Source of the DNA: Nitrospira sp. CG24E
Lineage (GTDB): Bacteria > Nitrospirota > Nitrospiria > Nitrospirales > Nitrospiraceae
Assembly (NCBI GenBank): GCA_002869895.2
Contig: NEWP02000009.1
Span: 24,601-88,600 of the forward strand
DNA length: 64,000 bases
Direction of reading: 5' to 3'
Part shown: positions 5,921-27,770 of the stretch, piece by piece
Layout: the number at the start of each line of letters is the position of its first letter
Position numbering within the stretch: the first letter of the stretch is position 1
Made by a program: the position numbers and the translations under genes
Notes under the pieces: generated by a model
Told to the model about the DNA's origin: nothing
The model's database searches: none
Seen by the model: the letters and a program-made list of their open reading frames with translations, nothing else

Positions 5921-6028
5921 GGAATTACTCATGACAGCTGTGGCTGAAATAGAAACAAAGAGCGCTGAGCGACGTTGGGGCGCAATGGCTCGCGTGAGCG
6001 CTGACGCCAGCGGAAACTTTCTGTTCTC
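5921..6028. repeat. repeat Q (CTGAATTACTGATGGCTGCTGTGGCTGAAATAGAAACGAAGAGC...), copy 1
   Basis: About 105-nt near-duplicate of 6508-6613. Its first about 60 nt recur at 8260-8325. Confidence 0.85.
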
Positions 6029-6450
6029 GACTGTCCCGACGGGACCACAAGTCCTGCTAATCGATGGCCCGTCCGCACTCTATCCCGGAAGCCTGCCGGT
6101 GCAGACAACCATTCAACCCGGCATCGCAAACGTGTTGCCCTATCCGGTGTTCCTGCATGAAGTCGGACAGAACTATGTGCCGATTGCGCAGGGTGGGCAA
6201 ACCATCGTCGCGCCGCCCGATATTCCTGGCTTTAGCATGTTGATTCCGGCAGGCACCACGATCACCGGCTGGGACGGCCAGCCTAATGTGAAGGTCTCGG
6301 TGGTGCCGGTGCCCAACGATCGCTTGCCGATTCCGCAATTGCCGGCAAACGTCCCGGCCAAACAGGTCTACATGTTCAACTTCGGCAAACCGGGTGGCGG
6401 CTACCCGAGTCGGCCGATCCCCATCATCATGCCGGGGAAGAAAAAGGTGG
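5985..6450 (+). pseudogene. fragment of the N-terminal region of an Rhs-family / carboxypeptidase-regulatory-like wall protein
   Basis: ARVSADASGNFLFSTVPTGPQVLLIDG... reads as a beta-sandwich-type sequence. Both ends of ORF 5931-6491 are made of repeat sequence (Q on the left, P on the right). Confidence 0.45.
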
Positions 6451-6452
6451 GG

Positions 6453-6496
6453 GAAGAAAAAGGTGTCAGGAACCATTTTCCTCATGAATGAGAAAA
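6453..6496. repeat. repeat P (GGAAGAAAAAGGTGTCAGGAACCATTTTCCTCATGAATGAGAAA), palindrome-containing REP-like unit, copy 1
   Basis: Identical 44-mer at 8371-8414. Contains the imperfect palindrome TTTCCTCATGAATGAGAAA. A related AAAAAGGTGTCAGACAC sits at about 29546. Confidence 0.85.
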
Positions 6497-7285
6497 GTAT
6501 GGACAGTCTGAATTACTGATGGCTGCTGTGGCTGAAATAGAAACGAAGAGCCCGAGCGAAGTTGGGACGCGATGGCTTGCGTCACCGCCGACGCTAGCGG
6601 GAACTTCCTGTTCACCAGGGAGAAGAAGAAAAGGGGCCAGCAACTTTATGTTCGGGGGGCGCCCGCGTCGGCGCAACGTGGATTCCAGTCCCAGCGTGGC
6701 AGCGAGTTGTTGTTGCCACTCGGGTGCGCCAAACGGTTGTTGACGGTTCACACAGGTGCGGAGTGCGGTGAGTTCATGATCAACGAGCGGCTGATCCATC
6801 CACGTCGTCCAATCCTCTGGCAGCGGAATCGGCGACGGATCGGTGAGGTGGGGCCGGTGCAAACTCGACCAGGGCCATTGGCTGGTGTGTGCAACCAGCC
6901 CGGCACGGACCGGATTGCGGAGCACATAGCGCAGGACCGTGAGGAGATGGCCGTCCTCTTGAATGGGGAAGCTTTTGAAACGCCCTTGCCACACATGCCC
7001 CTGACTGCGGTAGTGCCGATGATAGCGGCGGACATGACTGGTCATCCACCACTGCATGAAGGGACTGAGCGCGGCGTCCGTCAGAGGTTGCACGACGAGA
7101 TGAAAATGATTCGGCATCAGACAGAAGCCCAAGAGTGTGACGGGATGCTTGGCTTTCGCCGTGGCGAGCAGGTCGAGGAAGGCGGTGTAGTCACCCTCCT
7201 TGTGGAAGACCGCAGCACCGCCGTTCCCGCGATTCAGGACATGGTAGGCGTGCCCGGCCACTTGACCGCGAGGAATCCGAGGCAT
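6482..7285 (-). CDS. IS200-like Y1 (HUH) transposase, REP-associated RayT type
   Basis: MPRIPRG..YHVLNRGN, HUH motif in LMPNHFHLVVQP, catalytic-Tyr region LRYVLRNPVRAGLV, then LGLESTLRRRGRP. The last about 45 codons read through repeats P/Q, so the true C-terminus is uncertain. Confidence 0.8.
   Translation of the reverse strand: MPRIPRGQVAGHAYHVLNRGNGGAAVFHKEGDYTAFLDLLATAKAKHPVTLLGFCLMPNHFHLVVQPLTDAALSPFMQWWMTSHVRRYHRHYRSQGHVWQGRFKSFPIQEDGHLLTVLRYVLRNPVRAGLVAHTSQWPWSSLHRPHLTDPSPIPLPEDWTTWMDQPLVDHELTALRTCVNRQQPFGAPEWQQQLAATLGLESTLRRRGRPPNIKLLAPFLLLPGEQEVPASVGGDASHRVPTSLGLFVSISATAAISNSDCPYFSHS
6508..6613. repeat. repeat Q, copy 2
   Basis: Near-identical to 5921-6028. Overlaps the 3' end of the transposase ORF. 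Confidence 0.85.
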
Positions 7286-7605
7286 GGCGTGAACAGGGTA
7301 GGGGAAATCGGGGGCTCAGGCAACAGAAAAGTAGCCTTGTATCTTACTTCGGTGTTCCTTCACGATATGTCTTCCGGTAACCCAGACGTGATAGACCGAC
7401 GTAGCCGAGGTCTTCAAAGACCGTGGGACAGCGCGGGTCGTCACGTCTACATTCTGAACAAGCCCGAACAGTTGCGTGGGCCATTGAGCCCGCATCGCAA
7501 GGCTGGGACACAGAATTGGGAGGCCGGGGTCTCTGGTCCGTCAGTTGTGGCATGCGTGCCTCTGAGTACGCAGGGGCGCCTCTGCGTGCTTGACAGTCAA
7601 GAAAG

Positions 7606-7917
7606 TTGCTGTCCCCTGCGCTCCCCCATGTAGTTGTGAGGGGTGGAACTAAGGATCTCCCACCGCCAGGTCAAACATTTTCTGGCGCAGCCGGACCAAC
7701 CTTAAATGATGCAGCAGCTGGAGTACCACATAACCAAATAAGAGCGACTACGGCTGGTGAGATCAGAGCTAGTGGTGGAACAGTAGTTCATGCTCCTGAA
7801 CCAACCAGGTCAGGAGCCATTAATGACAAGCATGTAAATATTTGTTCCGGATCTGGCCCTTGTCCTTTCGGGCCACTTCAACCCAATCCTGTGCCAAAGT
7901 CAAGGAGAGTGCAATGA
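7606..7917 (+). CDS. orphan polymorphic-toxin C-terminal fragment (family unknown)
   Basis: Markedly AT-richer block; ATGA overlap with a small downstream ORF; no N-terminal delivery domain. The start codon is arbitrary (frame opens just upstream). Confidence 0.4.
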   Translation: MLSPALPHVVVRGGTKDLPPPGQTFSGAAGPTLNDAAAGVPHNQIRATTAGEIRASGGTVVHAPEPTRSGAINDKHVNICSGSGPCPFGPLQPNPVPKSRRVQ

Positions 7918-8231
7918 GTAACAGAAAAGAAATCTGGCTCCAAATCGAATACGGTGAATTTCACGACATCCCTAGAGCATTTGTCGTGAATTGGAATGGT
8001 GAGTCGTACTTCTTTGACTGTGCCTTTAGTGGTGCAATAGATGACTATCCTGATGAATTTATCGTTTACAAATTGCGCCAAAATATTTCACGCAATGGAA
8101 ATACACTTCCTTGGACGGAGCTTCACACGTATGGAGAACGTGTTGGGTCTGTCAGAACTCAGGATGTAGTGTTTGATGAGTCTAAAAGAAAAGCAATTCG
8201 CGGGGATGTGTTTGACACATTCGTAATTTGA
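7914..8231 (+). CDS. putative immunity protein (105 aa)
   Basis: AAGGAGAG Shine-Dalgarno 6 nt before the ATG at 7914, which overlaps the toxin stop. Sequence is acidic and aromatic (YFFDCAFSGAIDDYPDEFIVY). Same low GC as the toxin fragment. Confidence 0.55.
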   Translation: MSNRKEIWLQIEYGEFHDIPRAFVVNWNGESYFFDCAFSGAIDDYPDEFIVYKLRQNISRNGNTLPWTELHTYGERVGSVRTQDVVFDESKRKAIRGDVFDTFVI

Positions 8232-8259
8232 TAACGTGAATTAGCAAAATAGGGACAGG

Positions 8260-8325
8260 CTGAATTACTGATGGCTGCTGTGGCTGAAACAGAAACGAAG
8301 AGCGCCGAGCGACGGGGGAATGCGA
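8260..8325. repeat. repeat Q, copy 3 (short)
   Basis: CTGAATTACTGATGGCTGCTGTGGCTGAAACAGAAACGAAGAGCGCCGAGCGACGGGGG. Confidence 0.85.
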
Positions 8326-8370
8326 TGTCCCGTCCGCGTGTCCGCGATGGAAAGGCACCGACCGTTGGGT

Positions 8371-8414
8371 GGAAGAAAAAGGTGTCAGGAACCATTTTCC
8401 TCATGAATGAGAAA
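8371..8414. repeat. repeat P, copy 2; flanked by the 26-nt direct repeat TGTCCCGTCCGCGTGTCCGCGATGGA (8326-8351 and 8428-8453)
   Basis: Exact 44-mer match to 6453-6496. Confidence 0.85.
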
Positions 8415-8658
8415 GATGGAGACAGGCTGTCCCGTCCGCGTGTCCGCGATGGAACGGCACTGAGCTTTGAGAGAGTTTTTCGACAAATGGCCCGGCTGAA
8501 GCAGCATCATGATGGGTTTTCTGAGCGCTGAAATGTCTCGAGATGAAATGACGATGACTGGTTTTTCTTCAAAAACACGCGTGCGACCAACGATGAACGT
8601 ACTTCGGCCCCGCCGCGTCTGCTCGCGGCCCGGACAGCGCTGGTCTACTTCCCTGTAC

Positions 8659-21589: not shown

Positions 21590-21778
21590 GCCTTCAGCGT
21601 GAAGTCTTTCTTCGGAGGATGTTCAAACGGCTTTCCAGCAAGGCCGCAGGCGAAGGTAAAACCGGAAGCGTAACTTTCTCACCCGCCCTCCCCGAGCTGC
21701 AGAGCAGCTCCTTCCTCAATGGACTACGTTGAGGATTTTGCCGAGCCGAGAACGACGCTGGAGAGTCGTTTCAACATT
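21590..21778 (-). mobile_element. MITE-like structured repeat (core CCAGCGTCGTTCTCG...CTCAACGTA), copy in the purD-purH spacer
   Basis: The reverse complement aligns with 26845-27045. Shared blocks are CCAGCGTCGTTCTCG, CTCAACGTA and CTGCGGCCTYGCTGGA..G..TTTGA.CA.CC. The termini are mutually complementary. Confidence 0.7.
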
Positions 21779-21780
21779 CG

Positions 21781-26148: not shown

Positions 26149-26306
26149 TGCCTCGAACACGACGGCTTCAAGCCGGGCGAACGCGCAGGCGAATTCACAT
26201 AGAATATGAGCCAGGCGACGTAAGCCGGCATTCTTGCCTTTTACCCTTCGAGGGTCTATTCAGACTGAAGAAGTTCCGTTGCGGTCGTGCATGGAGAGCA
26301 ATTGCT

Positions 26307-26636
26307 ATGCTGAGTGTAGAGCAGGATCCTTTGTCGTTCGTTGAGCAAAACGCCTGCGAAGTGGCGTGCACTCTTCTGGCATCTGAACCACGGGTCAAGG
26401 TGTTTCTCTTTGGTTCAAGCGCGACCGAGCGTGCCAGCTCCCGATCGGACATCGATCTGGGTATCGATCTCGGTCACGCGATTGCACCGGAGATGCTTGC
26501 GTCATTACGCGATGCGTTCGATGAGTTGCCGATCATGCAGAAAGTCGACATTGTCGATTTTTCCGTACTCGACGAAGCGTTTAAAGCAGGGGCCCTTCAG
26601 CAAATCGAGAGTGTCTATGAGCGACAAGCTGCATAA
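26307..26636 (+). CDS. minimal nucleotidyltransferase (MNT), partner of an HI0074-type HEPN
   Basis: VFLFGSSATERASSRSDIDLGIDL motif; GGAGAG SD; 109 aa. Confidence 0.8.
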   Translation: MLSVEQDPLSFVEQNACEVACTLLASEPRVKVFLFGSSATERASSRSDIDLGIDLGHAIAPEMLASLRDAFDELPIMQKVDIVDFSVLDEAFKAGALQQIESVYERQAA

Positions 26637-27210
26637 TTTGTTAAGGCTTCCAGGTCTTGCGCTGACGCGCCTTGATGGGGCGTTAGCTCAGCCTGTCAAC
26701 GAATTCGTTCGTGATTCTGCCATCCAACGGTTTGAGTTTACCTTTGAATTATTCTGGAAGAGCCTGAAGGCATATGCCGAGGAGTCGGGGGTAGAAGCCT
26801 ATTGACCGAGAGACAGCGTCAGGACGGCATTTCAGCTAACAGGGTGCTGAAAAAGTCCGCCAGCGTCGTTCTCGCATCGTTCAGACCCTCAACGTACCCC
26901 AGAGGGTACGCTTCGGCCCTTCACTCACTGCGGCCTCGCTGGACAGTCTTTTTGAGCACCCTGGAGGTGAATTCTCCTGGTATGCCTCGCGCTCACCGTC
27001 GAAGTTCTTGCGCGTCAAACATAGTTTTCCAGCAGCCTGATCGGGGTGATCCAGGAACACCCCGATTGGCTTCGGATGTTGCAAGATCGCAACCTCACCA
27101 GCCATACCTATAACGAAGCGACGGCTAAATCGATCTACTCCCATCTCCCGGCCTATTGCCGCCTTATCCGCCAGGCGCATGCTGAGTTGTCTCAGAGGGT
27201 CACGCGCTAG
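26617..27210 (+). pseudogene. HI0074-family HEPN (nucleotidyltransferase substrate-binding protein), inactivated by an in-frame TGA (26803-26805) and a 201-bp insertion (26845-27045)
   Basis: N-part ..RDSAIQRFEFTFELFWKSLKAYAEESGVEAY*PRDSVRTAFQLTG; C-part VIQEHPDWLRMLQDRNLTSHTYNEATAKSIY...*. Both are in the same frame and together make a normal-length protein. Confidence 0.8.
26845..27045 (+). mobile_element. MITE-like structured repeat inserted in the HEPN gene; possible GGGTG target duplication
   Basis: Flanked by ACAGGGTG|CTGAAAAAG... and ...GATCGGGGTG|ATCC. Termini GGGTGCTGAAAAAG and CTTTTTGAGCACCC are complementary. Internal hairpin GTACCCcagaGGGTAC. Homologous to 21590-21778. Confidence 0.75.
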
Positions 27211-27350
27211 TTGTTTGGCAGCTCTCGCTCTATCTTTATGGCGAGCGAGGCCTCTTCAAGCCTGGCGAACTTGCCGCACAGTTCCGGTCAAAGTCCGTTC
27301 CCAACTCACCTACGCGTGGCGCAGCAGTCACCATCCATCGAAGAATGAGT

Positions 27351-27770
27351 CTAAAAAAGACACCCGGTACATCTGCTCTTTCCCGAACTTACACCGGAAT
27401 ACAATTCCCAAACAGAATACCCAGGCAACGAGAGCCGAGCGACGCAAAGCCAAGCAGTGGCTGTCTGGCAGGACTGACGCTCAGATAAGTAGAATGACCC
27501 CGTTTTCTTTCTGCCAGAATGTCCCCCTTCTTTAATTCGGCGCATCTTCCAAAATCCGGACGGCAGCTTCCCCAATCCCAGACGCACCAACCCTGCGCGG
27601 GCCAGACTGCGAAGATGTGCGGACTCCTTTTCGCCACGGTGGGGCAACGGCACCAGCTTGGCAATCGGTTTGCCTCGCTCCATGACGATGACTTCTTCTC
27701 CGGCTTTGACTATAGCCAGACAGGCACTCAATGTCGCCTTCAAGGCAGACACCGCTGCAGACTTCATCAT
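27351..27770 (-). CDS. Phd/YefM-type antitoxin (VapB-like); its C-terminus runs into a repeat and no toxin gene follows
   Basis: GGAGG SD; MMKSAAVSALKATLSACLAIVKAGEEVIVMERGKPIAKLVPLP...LARAGLVRLGLGKLPSGFW. After about residue 85 the codons are repeat sequence. Confidence 0.65.
   Translation of the reverse strand: MMKSAAVSALKATLSACLAIVKAGEEVIVMERGKPIAKLVPLPHRGEKESAHLRSLARAGLVRLGLGKLPSGFWKMRRIKEGGHSGRKKTGSFYLSERQSCQTATAWLCVARLSLPGYSVWELYSGVSSGKSRCTGCLF
27424..27510. repeat. partial copy (3' third) of the 220-nt repeat
   Basis: GGCAACGAGAGCCGAGCGACG...CTGGCAGGACTGACGCTCAGATAAGTAGAATGACCCCGTTTTCT compared with 29368-29448. Confidence 0.75.

What the first reader, a model, noticed from the sequence alone, without database searches (positions are those of the whole stretch)
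26617..27210. A 201-bp structured MITE-like element caught inside an HI0074-type HEPN gene; a sister copy fills the purD-purH spacer
The HEPN reading frame is recognisable on both sides of 26845-27045: ...AFQLTG | VIQEHPDWLRMLQDRNLTSHTYNE.... The junctions share GGGTG, a possible target duplication. The insert has complementary termini (GGGTGCTGAAAAAG / CTTTTTGAGCACCC), an inner CCAGCG/CGCTGG pairing and a GTACCCcagaGGGTAC hairpin. The same conserved blocks (CCAGCGTCGTTCTCG, CTCAACGTA, CTGCGGCCTYGCTGGA) occur in reverse orientation at 21590-21778 between purD and purH. The interrupted gene shows that this element transposes, or did so recently. It encodes no protein, so it must rely on a transposase acting in trans. 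The HEPN gene also has an in-frame TGA at 26803, where family members have Ser before PR.
Basis: seen in the sequence. Interest (0 to 1): 0.6.

Follow-up and report, generated by a model that had tools for sequence, protein, structure and literature searches.

The report
IS5-type MITE splitting a HEPN toxin gene
A 200-base non-coding jumping element, present about 180 times in this Nitrospira genome and throughout its family, has landed in and killed a toxin gene; the insertion is ordinary, but the element carries an unusually conserved folded core that deserves a functional test.

Summary
The HI0074-type HEPN gene (26617-27210) is split by a 200-bp element (26840-27039). An intact paralogue in the same genome and two related genomes show the empty site. 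The net gain is 204 bp: 200 bp plus a 4-bp target duplication, now decayed. The proposed GGGTG duplication is wrong.

The element is a 124-nt hairpin module followed by a 76-nt tail that ends in the true right inverted repeat. The genome holds 183 module hits (0.56% of its bases). Every genome sampled from the genus has copies, as do most of the family. Two more insertion sites have empty counterparts, with clean CTAG or TTAG duplications.

I found the likely helpers: IS5-family insertion sequences in related genomes with the same terminal repeats and the same 4-bp duplications. The only cognate copy in this genome is a pseudogene, so "recent" transposition is not supported.

Three results go beyond a plain MITE:
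- The hairpin covaries strongly.
- 44 of 96 copies start within 11 nt of a co-oriented gene's stop codon.
- The purH-purD copy is orthologous across the genus and better conserved than its coding flanks.

The core also occurs in Desulfosarcina inside different outer arms. Its function is unknown, and no RNA data were available.

The parts
26307..26636 (+). MNT-type nucleotidyltransferase gene (antitoxin partner). It looks intact and overlaps the HEPN start by 20 nt.
   Evidence: Pfam PF18765 and PF01909; ORF table.
26617..26839 (+). 5' part of the HI0074-type HEPN gene (PF08780).
26803..26805 (+). In-frame TGA. It replaces the Ser codon (TCA/TCC) found in the intact paralogue and in the G004 and G008 copies. 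This is a second inactivating lesion.
26836..26839 (+). Left copy of the 4-bp target duplication, now CTAA. The pre-insertion site is inferred to have been CTAG (Leu CTA plus the G of Gly).
   Evidence: Empty sites read cagCTTGggg (paralogue), cagTTGGggg (G004) and cagTTAGggg (G008). The family left-flank logo is Y-T-A-R.
26840..27039 (+). The full-length MITE copy, 200 bp.
   Evidence: Net 204-bp gain against the empty sites. Units of 200-204 bp at 81-86% identity occur in many genomes of the genus.
26840..26963 (+). The 124-nt long-hairpin module with the conserved core (GCGTTCTCG .. CCTCAACGTA-hairpin-TACGC .. CTGCGGCCTCGCTGG).
   Evidence: nhmmer census; RNAalifold and pair counts; fold energy -54.6 kcal/mol.
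26840..26855 (+). Left terminal inverted repeat, CAGGGTGCTGAAAAAG (family consensus CAGGATGCTGAAAAAG).
   Evidence: Matches the left ends of the lineage-2 IS5-family insertion sequences, CAGGATGTTGAAAAAG.
26948..26963 (+). Internal inverted copy of the terminal repeat (CTTTTTGAGCACCCTG). It forms the 3' arm of the hairpin and is not the end of the insert.
26964..27039 (+). 76-nt tail. Its sequence varies between subfamilies but its length is constant at 75-77 nt.
27025..27039 (+). True right terminal inverted repeat, TTTTCCAGCAGCCTG (family consensus TTTTCCGCAGCCTG; reverse complement CAGGCTGCGGAAAA).
27040..27043 (+). Right copy of the 4-bp target duplication, now ATCG (decayed).
27040..27210 (+). 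3' part of the HEPN gene, including the RNLTSH (Rx4-6H-type) motif.
21615..21780 (-). Sister copy: module only, with a roughly 42-nt central insertion. It starts directly after the purH stop codon (TAA) and ends 31 nt before the purD start (GTG). It is orthologous across the genus.

Best explanation
Window 26840-27039 is one copy of a roughly 200-bp non-autonomous transposable element (a MITE) derived from IS5-family insertion sequences.

**Shown**
- It inserted between the Leu and Gly codons of the HEPN toxin gene of an MNT-HEPN pair, adding 204 bp: 200 bp plus a 4-bp duplication of a YTAR target.
- This destroys the reading frame, because the insert carries four in-frame stops.
- The gene also carries a TCA-to-TGA nonsense change, so it is a pseudogene.
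- The element has two parts. The first is a 124-nt hairpin whose arms are the left terminal repeat and an internal inverted copy of it. The second is a 76-nt tail that ends in the real right terminal repeat.
- IS5-family insertion sequences of about 1.35 kb in related Nitrospiraceae carry the same terminal repeats (CAGGATGTTGAAAAAG / ..AAAAAC, or CAGGCTGTTGACAAAC) and make the same 4-bp duplications.

**Inferred**
- Copies are cut and pasted in trans by the DDE transposase of those insertion sequences.
- The only cognate insertion sequence in this genome has two in-frame stops, so the copies here are probably immobile now.
- YTAR contains TAG or TAA, and the duplication preserves a stop codon. 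Insertions at gene ends are therefore tolerated, which helps explain why copies pile up right after stop codons.
- The hairpin core is probably kept by selection for something other than transposition.
For: **The split gene and its empty sites**
- The joined HEPN protein matches PF08780 in one stretch.
- The intact paralogue at genome contig C2:146307-147031 reads ..AFQLGVIQEH.., and G004 and G008 also lack the insert. The net difference is 204 bp.

**Copy number and spread**
- 183 module hits, 96 near full length, 19.3 kb or 0.56% of the genome.
- Present in all 81 genomes sampled from the genus, with about 30-300 candidate copies each. Present in 64 of 301 genomes sampled from the phylum, mostly the same family.

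**Ends and target duplication**
- The left flank logo is Y-T-A-R directly before CAGG.
- YTAR occurs exactly 75-77 nt after the module in about 25 of 93 copies, against a background of 0.66 per offset.
- Perfect duplications are seen: CTAG/CTAG four times and TTAG/TTAG once.

**Further empty sites**
- Downstream of pup, G000 has CTAG|200 bp|CTAG, where G057 and G075 have a single CCAG or CCGG.
- In the flgN-flgK spacer, G070, G067 and G023 are exactly 204 nt shorter.

**Cognate insertion sequences**
- Both ends of 12 compared elements align with the MITE ends and sit next to NTAN 4-mers. Non-palindromic matching pairs (ATAG/ATAG, CTAA/CTAA) show the duplication is 4 bp, not 2 bp.
- The transposases carry DUF772 plus DDE_Tnp_1. 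Lineage 2 passes NCBIfam NF033581, IS5 family, at 261 bits against a cut-off of 140.
- The copy in this genome, C35:5437-6783, is flanked by CTAG and has in-frame TGA and TAG stops.
Against: - The duplication at the HEPN site itself is unrecognisable (CTAA against ATCG). The 4-bp gain there rests on arithmetic against the empty sites.
- Most copies, about 70%, have no recognisable tail or right-hand YTAR. Their right border is undefined. At the flgM site, G000 lacks exactly the 76-nt tail that G012 has.
- Mobilisation by the identified transposases was not tested. They occur in only about 20% of the genomes sampled from the family, while the MITE is nearly universal there.
- A purely selfish MITE does not explain three results. 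The orientation bias is 44 left ends against about 10 right ends at stop codons. The purH-purD copy is better conserved than its coding flanks. The same core occurs in another phylum inside different arms.
Confidence: 0.88

Rival explanations
1. The 124-nt module is a functional structured element that the host has co-opted, and the MITE shell only spreads it. Placed right after a stop codon, the hairpin would act on the upstream or downstream gene as an RNA 3'-end stabiliser, a processing site, a brake on ribosome release, or an operon punctuation mark. This view is compatible with the MITE origin.
For: - 31 of 40 pairs show changes on both sides, in 196 cells. None of 500 shuffles reaches this, and slid controls give 19-55 cells.
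- The internal loops are nearly invariant while the stems vary.
- 44 of 96 copies start within 11 nt of the stop codon of a co-oriented upstream ORF, and 20 start exactly at the stop. Only about 10 have the other end at a stop codon.
- The orthologous purH-purD copy is 85-96% identical between species, while the 701-nt region around it is 80-86% identical.
- The core recurs in Desulfosarcina inside unrelated, covarying outer arms.
Against:
- There is no canonical terminator in or after the module and no Rfam family.
- Among orthologous purH-purD copies, changes in the 5' arm are not visibly compensated in the 3' arm.
- Arm-to-arm correction in quasi-palindromes can produce covariation without selection.
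- The strand test is ambiguous. The strand opposite to the usual transcription direction folds better in 63 of 71 copies.
Confidence: 0.35
2. The tail-less hairpin modules are REP- or PATE-like elements moved as single-stranded DNA by an HUH (RAYT or IS200-type) transposase. Such an enzyme inserts 3' of a fixed tetranucleotide without duplicating the target.
For: - Module-only copies have a conserved YTAR on the left and nothing comparable on the right.
- The structure is a hairpin and the copies show an orientation bias.
- An earlier first-stage note reports a RAYT-like gene at 5921-8453 of this window. I did not check it.
Against: - The module's arms are the terminal repeats of IS5-family insertion sequences.
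- Every insertion with an empty counterpart is the 200-bp unit plus a 4-bp duplication.
- Loss of the tail can produce module-only copies, as the flgM site in G000 and G012 suggests.
- The arm on its own is not a short REP-type palindrome, and there is no GTAG motif.
Confidence: 0.07
3. The interruption is not disruptive. The 200 bp would be removed or bypassed (an intron, an intein-like segment or programmed recoding), so the HEPN gene still works.
For: The net insertion of 204 bp is a multiple of three, and both halves lie in one frame.
Against: - Four stop codons lie in frame inside the insert, plus the TGA upstream.
- There is no match to any intron or ribozyme family in Rfam.
- The same element sits in about 180 mostly intergenic places.
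Confidence: 0.02

Closest known systems
MITEs derived from IS5-family insertion sequences (ISfinder lists, for example, an IS1106/IS5-type MITE of Neisseria; cited in PMC11602168)
   Same: Small and non-coding. The terminal inverted repeats match those of an autonomous IS5-family element. There is a 4-bp YTAR (mostly CTAG) target duplication, a high copy number, and presence/absence polymorphism.
   Different: The interior is not a deleted version of the insertion sequence. It is a conserved hairpin core that is absent from the cognate elements. The element contains a third, internal copy of the terminal repeat. It is spread over a whole bacterial family.
Correia elements (CREE/NEMIS) of Neisseria, and ERIC/IRU elements of enterobacteria (from my own knowledge)
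   Same: Imperfect palindromes of 100-160 bp with terminal inverted repeats. Hundreds of copies lie next to genes, are co-transcribed, and fold into long RNA hairpins that affect mRNA processing and stability.
   Different: There is no sequence similarity. Correia elements duplicate TA. For the Nitrospira element the RNA-level effects are untested, while a candidate helper transposase is identified, which is not the case for Correia elements.
E. coli REP/BIME elements with RAYT transposases (from my own knowledge)
   Same: Abundant intergenic hairpins, often just after stop codons. REPs within about 15 nt of a stop codon are reported to lower expression of the upstream gene.
   Different: REPs are short palindromes of 20-40 nt with a 5' GTAG, make no target duplication and depend on an HUH enzyme. 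Here the ends are DDE-type terminal repeats with a 4-bp duplication.
Rickettsia palindromic elements (RPE) (from my own knowledge)
   Same: A palindromic repeat found inside a protein-coding gene, with a length that keeps the frame.
   Different: RPEs are translated in frame and tolerated. This copy carries stop codons in the host frame. The other "intragenic" hits in this genome fall in spurious ORFs.
HEPN-MNT toxin-antitoxin pairs (HI0073/HI0074 type; Pfam PF08780 and PF18765/PF01909)
   Same: Overlapping MNT then HEPN genes, with an RX4-6H-like motif (RNLTSH) in the 3' half. An intact paralogous pair exists in the same genome.
   Different: The toxin gene here is dead. It carries a MITE insertion and a nonsense codon.

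Membership tests
MITE (miniature inverted-repeat transposable element) | Short length (under about 500 bp) and no coding capacity. | tested here: met
   The element is 200 bp. No start codon or ORF is conserved. Stems covary, which does not fit coding constraint.
MITE (miniature inverted-repeat transposable element) | Terminal inverted repeats. | tested here: met
   CAGGATGCTGAAAA at the left end pairs with TTTTCCGCAGCCTG at the right end.
MITE (miniature inverted-repeat transposable element) | Target-site duplication, shown by comparing filled and empty sites. | tested here: met
   The pup site has CTAG|element|CTAG against a single 4-mer in G057 and G075. The flgN-flgK site is 204 nt shorter in three genomes. 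The HEPN site shows a net gain of 204 bp.
MITE (miniature inverted-repeat transposable element) | Many dispersed copies. | tested here: met
   183 hits in this genome, and about 30-300 candidates per genome across the genus.
MITE (miniature inverted-repeat transposable element) | An autonomous element with the same terminal repeats. | tested here: met
   Insertion sequences of about 1.35 kb share 15-16 nt of terminal repeat and the same duplication.
IS5-family derivative | 4-bp duplication of a YTAR target. | tested here: met
IS5-family derivative | The helper transposase belongs to the IS5 family. | tested here: met
   Lineage 2 scores 261 bits on NF033581 against a cut-off of 140. Lineage 1 is borderline between IS1182 (233.6 against 270) and IS5 (136 against 140). 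Pfam finds DUF772 plus DDE_Tnp_1.
IS5-family derivative | Actual mobilisation by that transposase. | not testable with these tools
   This needs a transposition or binding assay.
REP/BIME with RAYT | A short palindrome with a 5' GTAG, no target duplication, and HUH-dependent mobility. | tested here: not met
   A 4-bp duplication and DDE-type terminal repeats are present, and there is no GTAG.
Any Rfam RNA family | A score at or above the family's gathering threshold. | tested here: not met
   No hit in the 64-kb window. A permissive scan of 26780-27100 gave only chance-level hits, E = 0.5 and 7.
HI0074-type HEPN (Pfam PF08780, NTase_sub_bind) | A contiguous match of the joined halves to the family profile. 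| tested here: met
   E = 1.9e-31, profile positions 9-125 of 126, one stretch. The paralogue is intact at 129 aa.

The most novel reading that the evidence does not exclude
The roughly 80-nt conserved core (GCGTTCTCG .. CCTCAACGTA-hairpin-TACGCCTCCGG .. CTGCGGCCTTG) is a functional structured nucleic-acid module in its own right. It would be an RNA or single-stranded-DNA motif that binds a conserved cellular factor. It travels between phyla (Nitrospirota and Desulfobacterota) inside interchangeable mobile shells, and hosts retain it immediately after stop codons as a gene-end signal.
Probability: 0.3. Interest if true: 0.7.

Novelty: new member of a known kind. Interest (0 to 1): 0.45.

Why it matters
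Nitrospira are the main nitrite oxidisers, and include the complete ammonia oxidisers, in soils, waters and treatment plants. As far as the searchable literature shows, their genomes have no described repeat families.

- **Annotation.** This element makes up about 0.5% of the genome. It breaks assemblies (17 of 183 copies lie at contig ends), creates spurious small ORFs, and can inactivate genes, as it does here.
- **Markers.** Knowing its ends, its target (YTAR, often a stop codon) and its helper insertion sequences gives annotators a model. It also gives population geneticists presence/absence markers.
- **A testable candidate.** If the conserved core proves functional, it would be a new widespread gene-end element that can be tested directly in cultured Nitrospira or in reporter systems.

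Tried and rejected
- **GGGTG as target duplication.** Rejected. The left copy is part of the terminal repeat and the right copy is HEPN coding sequence that is also present in the empty sites.
- **TA duplication by an IS630/Tc1-like element.** Rejected. Non-palindromic matching 4-mers are seen (TTAG/TTAG, CTAA/CTAA, ATAG/ATAG). The IS630-like element in this genome, on contig C17, has unrelated ends.
- **The classical IS5-group elements as helper.** These carry GGAAGRTCTGAT ends and occur in 49 of 201 genomes sampled from the family. None of 29 loci has MITE-type ends.
- **Autonomous copy inside this genome by pairing terminal repeats 0.3-6 kb apart.** Only chance neighbours turned up.
- **Known RNA family.** None.
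- **Intrinsic terminator in the element.** None found.
- **Small ORF on the reverse strand (AGGAG plus ATG in some tails).** The start codon is not conserved between subfamilies.
- **RPE-like in-frame insertions in other genes.** The nine other "inside ORF" cases fall in ORFs that look spurious (arginine-rich, low complexity) or that merely begin at the element; I translated four of them.
- **Inferring the functional strand from fold energies.** Inconclusive. The minus strand is more stable in 63 of 71 copies, but the consensus structures are alike.
- **Off-phylum pattern hits.** The Woesearchaeota and Prevotellaceae hits are chance matches. The single "Gemmatimonadetes" contig may be mis-binned: its element type recurs in an unclassified genome that holds 118 copies.
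- **Sequencing-run search.** Closed, so no read or RNA evidence.

Full report
**1. The observation.** The sequence at 26300-27500 shows an MNT-type nucleotidyltransferase gene (26307-26636; Pfam PF18765/PF01909). A HEPN reading frame starting at 26617 overlaps it. That frame runs to a TGA at 26803-26805, continues as PRDSVRTAFQL, and is lost after 26839. It resumes as (G)VIQEHPDWLRMLQDRNLTSHTYNE... up to 27210. Joined, with X at the TGA, the two parts match PF08780 (NTase_sub_bind, the HI0074 family) in one stretch covering profile positions 9-125 of 126, E = 1.9e-31.

**2. Empty sites and true borders.**
- A DNA search with 26300-27300 found a 90%-identical paralogue in the same genome, C2:146307-147031. 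It lacks the insert and encodes an intact 129-aa HEPN reading ..AYSPRDSVRTAFQLGVIQEHPDW...
- G004 and G008 also have uninterrupted copies.
- The empty sites read cagCTTGgggtg, cagTTGGgggtg and cagTTAGgggtg. The window reads cagCTAA[CAGGGTG...CAGCCTG]ATCGgggtg.
- The net gain is 204 bp. That is a 200-bp element (26840-27039) plus 4 bp, not 201 bp at 26845-27045.
- The shared GGGTG is a coincidence. On the left it is part of the terminal repeat (CAGGGTG; family consensus CAGGATG). On the right it encodes Gly-Val and is present in all empty sites.
- The TGA replaces TCA or TCC (Ser) and is a second, independent lesion.

**3. The family.**
- Iterated nhmmer finds 183 hits in the 3.45-Mb genome. 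Of these, 96 are near full length. Together they cover 19.3 kb, or 0.56% of the genome.
- What repeats is a 124-nt module with consensus CAGGATGCTGAAAAAGTCCGCCAGC ... GCTGGACGGCCTTTTTGAGCATCCTG.
- In about a quarter of copies the module is followed by a tail of constant length (75-77 nt) and variable sequence. The tail ends in TTTTCCGCAGCCTG, a second right-hand copy of the terminal repeat, followed by YTAR.
- The left flank of nearly all copies is Y-T-A-R.
- Full-length copies show matching 4-mers on both sides: CTAG/CTAG four times, TTAG/TTAG once, and several 3-of-4 matches.
- The HEPN insert is such a full-length copy, but only 1 of its 4 duplicated positions still agrees (CTAA against ATCG).

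**4. Proof of mobility at other sites.**
- The copy downstream of pup (C20:195940) is CTAG|200 bp|CTAG. G057 and G075 have a single CCAG or CCGG there, and several other genomes show the same 5-nt overlap of the two flank alignments.
- In the flgN-flgK spacer, G000, G046 and G047 are filled. G070, G067 and G023 are exactly 204 nt shorter. The G070 sequence shows the bare flgN stop..GGCTAG|AGCGG...
- So the 200-bp unit with a 4-bp duplication is the transposing form. A 2-bp (TA) duplication is excluded by non-palindromic matching 4-mers.

**5. The helper.**
- This genome contains a decayed insertion sequence at C35:5437-6783. It is flanked by CTAG, and its right end, CAGTCTGTTGACAAAC, matches one MITE subfamily (CAGGCTGTTGACAAAG). 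Its transposase frame (DUF772 plus DDE_Tnp_1) has in-frame TGA and TAG stops.
- Searching the family with that protein found intact homologues of about 400 aa in roughly 20 genomes, and a second lineage at about 40% identity.
- Both ends of the 12 elements I compared carry CAGNNNGYTGANAAA next to NTAN 4-mers, including ATAG/ATAG and CTAA/CTAA pairs.
- Lineage-2 ends (CAGGATGTTGAAAAAG on the left, CAGGRTGTTGAAAAAC on the right) match the main MITE ends (CAGGATGCTGAAAAAG on the left, CAGGCTGCGGAAAAAC on the right), including the left/right polarity.
- Lineage 2 passes the NCBIfam IS5-family model. Lineage 1 lies between IS1182 and IS5.
- The classical IS5-group elements of these genomes have GGAAGRTCTGAT ends, and the IS630-like element has yet other ends. 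Neither matches.
- No intact cognate transposase was found in this genome. Together with the decayed duplication, the 89.5% identity of the module to the consensus and the extra nonsense codon, this argues that the HEPN insertion is not recent.

**6. Structure.**
- On 71 distinct copies the module folds into one long imperfect hairpin: 40 pairs in 6 helices, with 90.3% of cells paired.
- 31 pairs show changes on both sides, in 196 cells. None of 500 shuffles reaches this, and slid controls give 19-55 cells.
- The internal loops (GCGTTCTCG, CCTCAACGTA, CTGCGGCCTTG) are nearly invariant. The cognate insertion sequences do not contain this interior.
- Covariation alone does not prove an RNA function, because arm-to-arm correction in quasi-palindromes could mimic it.
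- The strand test is ambiguous. The reverse strand is more stable in 63 of 71 copies, but the consensus folds are the same.
- No Rfam family matches, and the scan found no canonical terminator.

**7. Position and conservation.**
- I called genes simply, as non-overlapping ORFs of at least 100 aa. By that call, 54 of 81 intergenic copies have a co-oriented upstream ORF.
- In 44 of those 54 the element starts within 11 nt of that ORF's stop codon, and in 20 it starts exactly at the stop. Only about 10 copies have the opposite end at a convergent gene's stop codon.
- The YTAR target, which contains TAG or TAA, and the preserved duplication explain why insertions at stop codons are tolerated. They do not explain the orientation bias, which remains unexplained.
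- The sister copy (about 21615-21780, minus strand) begins right after the purH TAA and ends 31 nt before the purD GTG.
- That copy is present at the same place in almost all genomes of the genus. In some species it carries a 42-nt central insertion.
- It is 85-96% identical between species whose surrounding 701 nt, mostly coding, are 80-86% identical. It is therefore an old, retained copy and not evidence of recent activity.

**8. Distribution.**
- The module is in all 81 genomes sampled from the genus. It is in nearly all sampled genomes of the family (Nitrospiraceae, according to record titles). It is sporadic elsewhere in the phylum: 64 of 301 genomes overall.
These included N. defluvii, N. 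lenta and comammox bins.
- Unexpectedly, the same core sits in Desulfosarcina widdelii PP31 (28 covariance-model hits) and in an uncultured Desulfosarcina (9 hits). There it lies inside hairpins of about 165 nt whose outer arms differ from the Nitrospira arms, differ from copy to copy, and remain complementary within each copy.
- In a sample of 301 Desulfobacterota genomes, 7 were positive. The core is therefore patchy outside Nitrospiraceae.

**9. Verdict.**
- The finding is a real MITE insertion that killed a HEPN toxin gene. That is an ordinary event of a known kind.
- The added value is the definition of a large, apparently undescribed Nitrospiraceae MITE family, including its ends, target, helper insertion sequences and age structure (literature searches).
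- There are also indications that its conserved hairpin core is kept for reasons other than transposition.

Noticed in passing
G000 contig C35:5437-6783 (outside the window): A decayed IS5/IS1182-like insertion sequence flanked by CTAG. Its transposase frame has in-frame TGA and TAG stops, and its left repeat carries an apparent 6-bp insertion. It is the only cognate helper copy in this genome.
   Followed up: yes
L240 (G009) 1400-1520 and L242 (G065) 2010-2150; also G000 C28:74960-75184, C28:72074 and C6:156988: The same terminal-repeat shell (CAGGATGCTGAA ... GCAGCCTG plus YTAR) carries a different interior. That interior is the phased 9-nt-unit hairpin repeat an earlier agent described as a separate Nitrospira family. 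The two abundant repeat families therefore appear to be cargo variants of one MITE shell.
   Followed up: partly
G000 C26:37180-38120 and the orthologous loci L238-L244: The stop codons of flgM and flgN (YTAG) are recurrent landing sites. Different genomes have the core-type MITE, the 9-nt-unit type, another hairpin, or nothing, always with the left repeat next to the stop codon.
   Followed up: partly
G000 C26:37191-37314 compared with L241 (G012) 1830-2040: At the flgM site G012 has the module plus a 76-nt tail, while G000 has the module only, with identical downstream flank. The tail seems to be lost or gained as a precise unit, which may explain the many tail-less copies.
   Followed up: partly
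window 21660-21705 (minus-strand copy between purH and purD): A roughly 42-nt GC-rich insertion sits in the apical loop of the module. It is present in G000, G069, G018, G003, G046 and others, and absent in G012, G013, G004 and G059.
   Followed up: partly
G000 C1:49030-50190: A classical IS5-group element (ends GGAAGRTCTGAT, CTAG duplication) has a TAA at codon 3 of its transposase. It lies directly beside a full-length MITE copy. Related genomes carry up to 11 identical copies of this insertion sequence.
   Followed up: partly
G000 C2:146307-147031: An intact paralogous MNT-HEPN pair, about 90% identical to the window's pair. It served as the empty-site reference.
   Followed up: yes
L151, L229, L230, L233 (Desulfosarcina): In three of the four forward-oriented copies I read, the long-hairpin element begins at a TAG (ttaG|TGTCC, ataG|TATCG, ataG|TGATC). 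In the fourth, a TAA lies 2 nt upstream. The TAG may be the stop codon of the upstream gene, echoing the Nitrospira pattern.
   Followed up: no
whole genome G000: 17 of 183 module hits lie within 150 nt of a contig end, so this repeat is a frequent cause of assembly breaks.
   Followed up: no
window 26840-27039: Two of the three forward frames are open across the whole element, giving translations such as ..LKKSASVVLASFRPSTYPRGYAS.. Such frames are likely to be annotated as small hypothetical proteins.
   Followed up: partly
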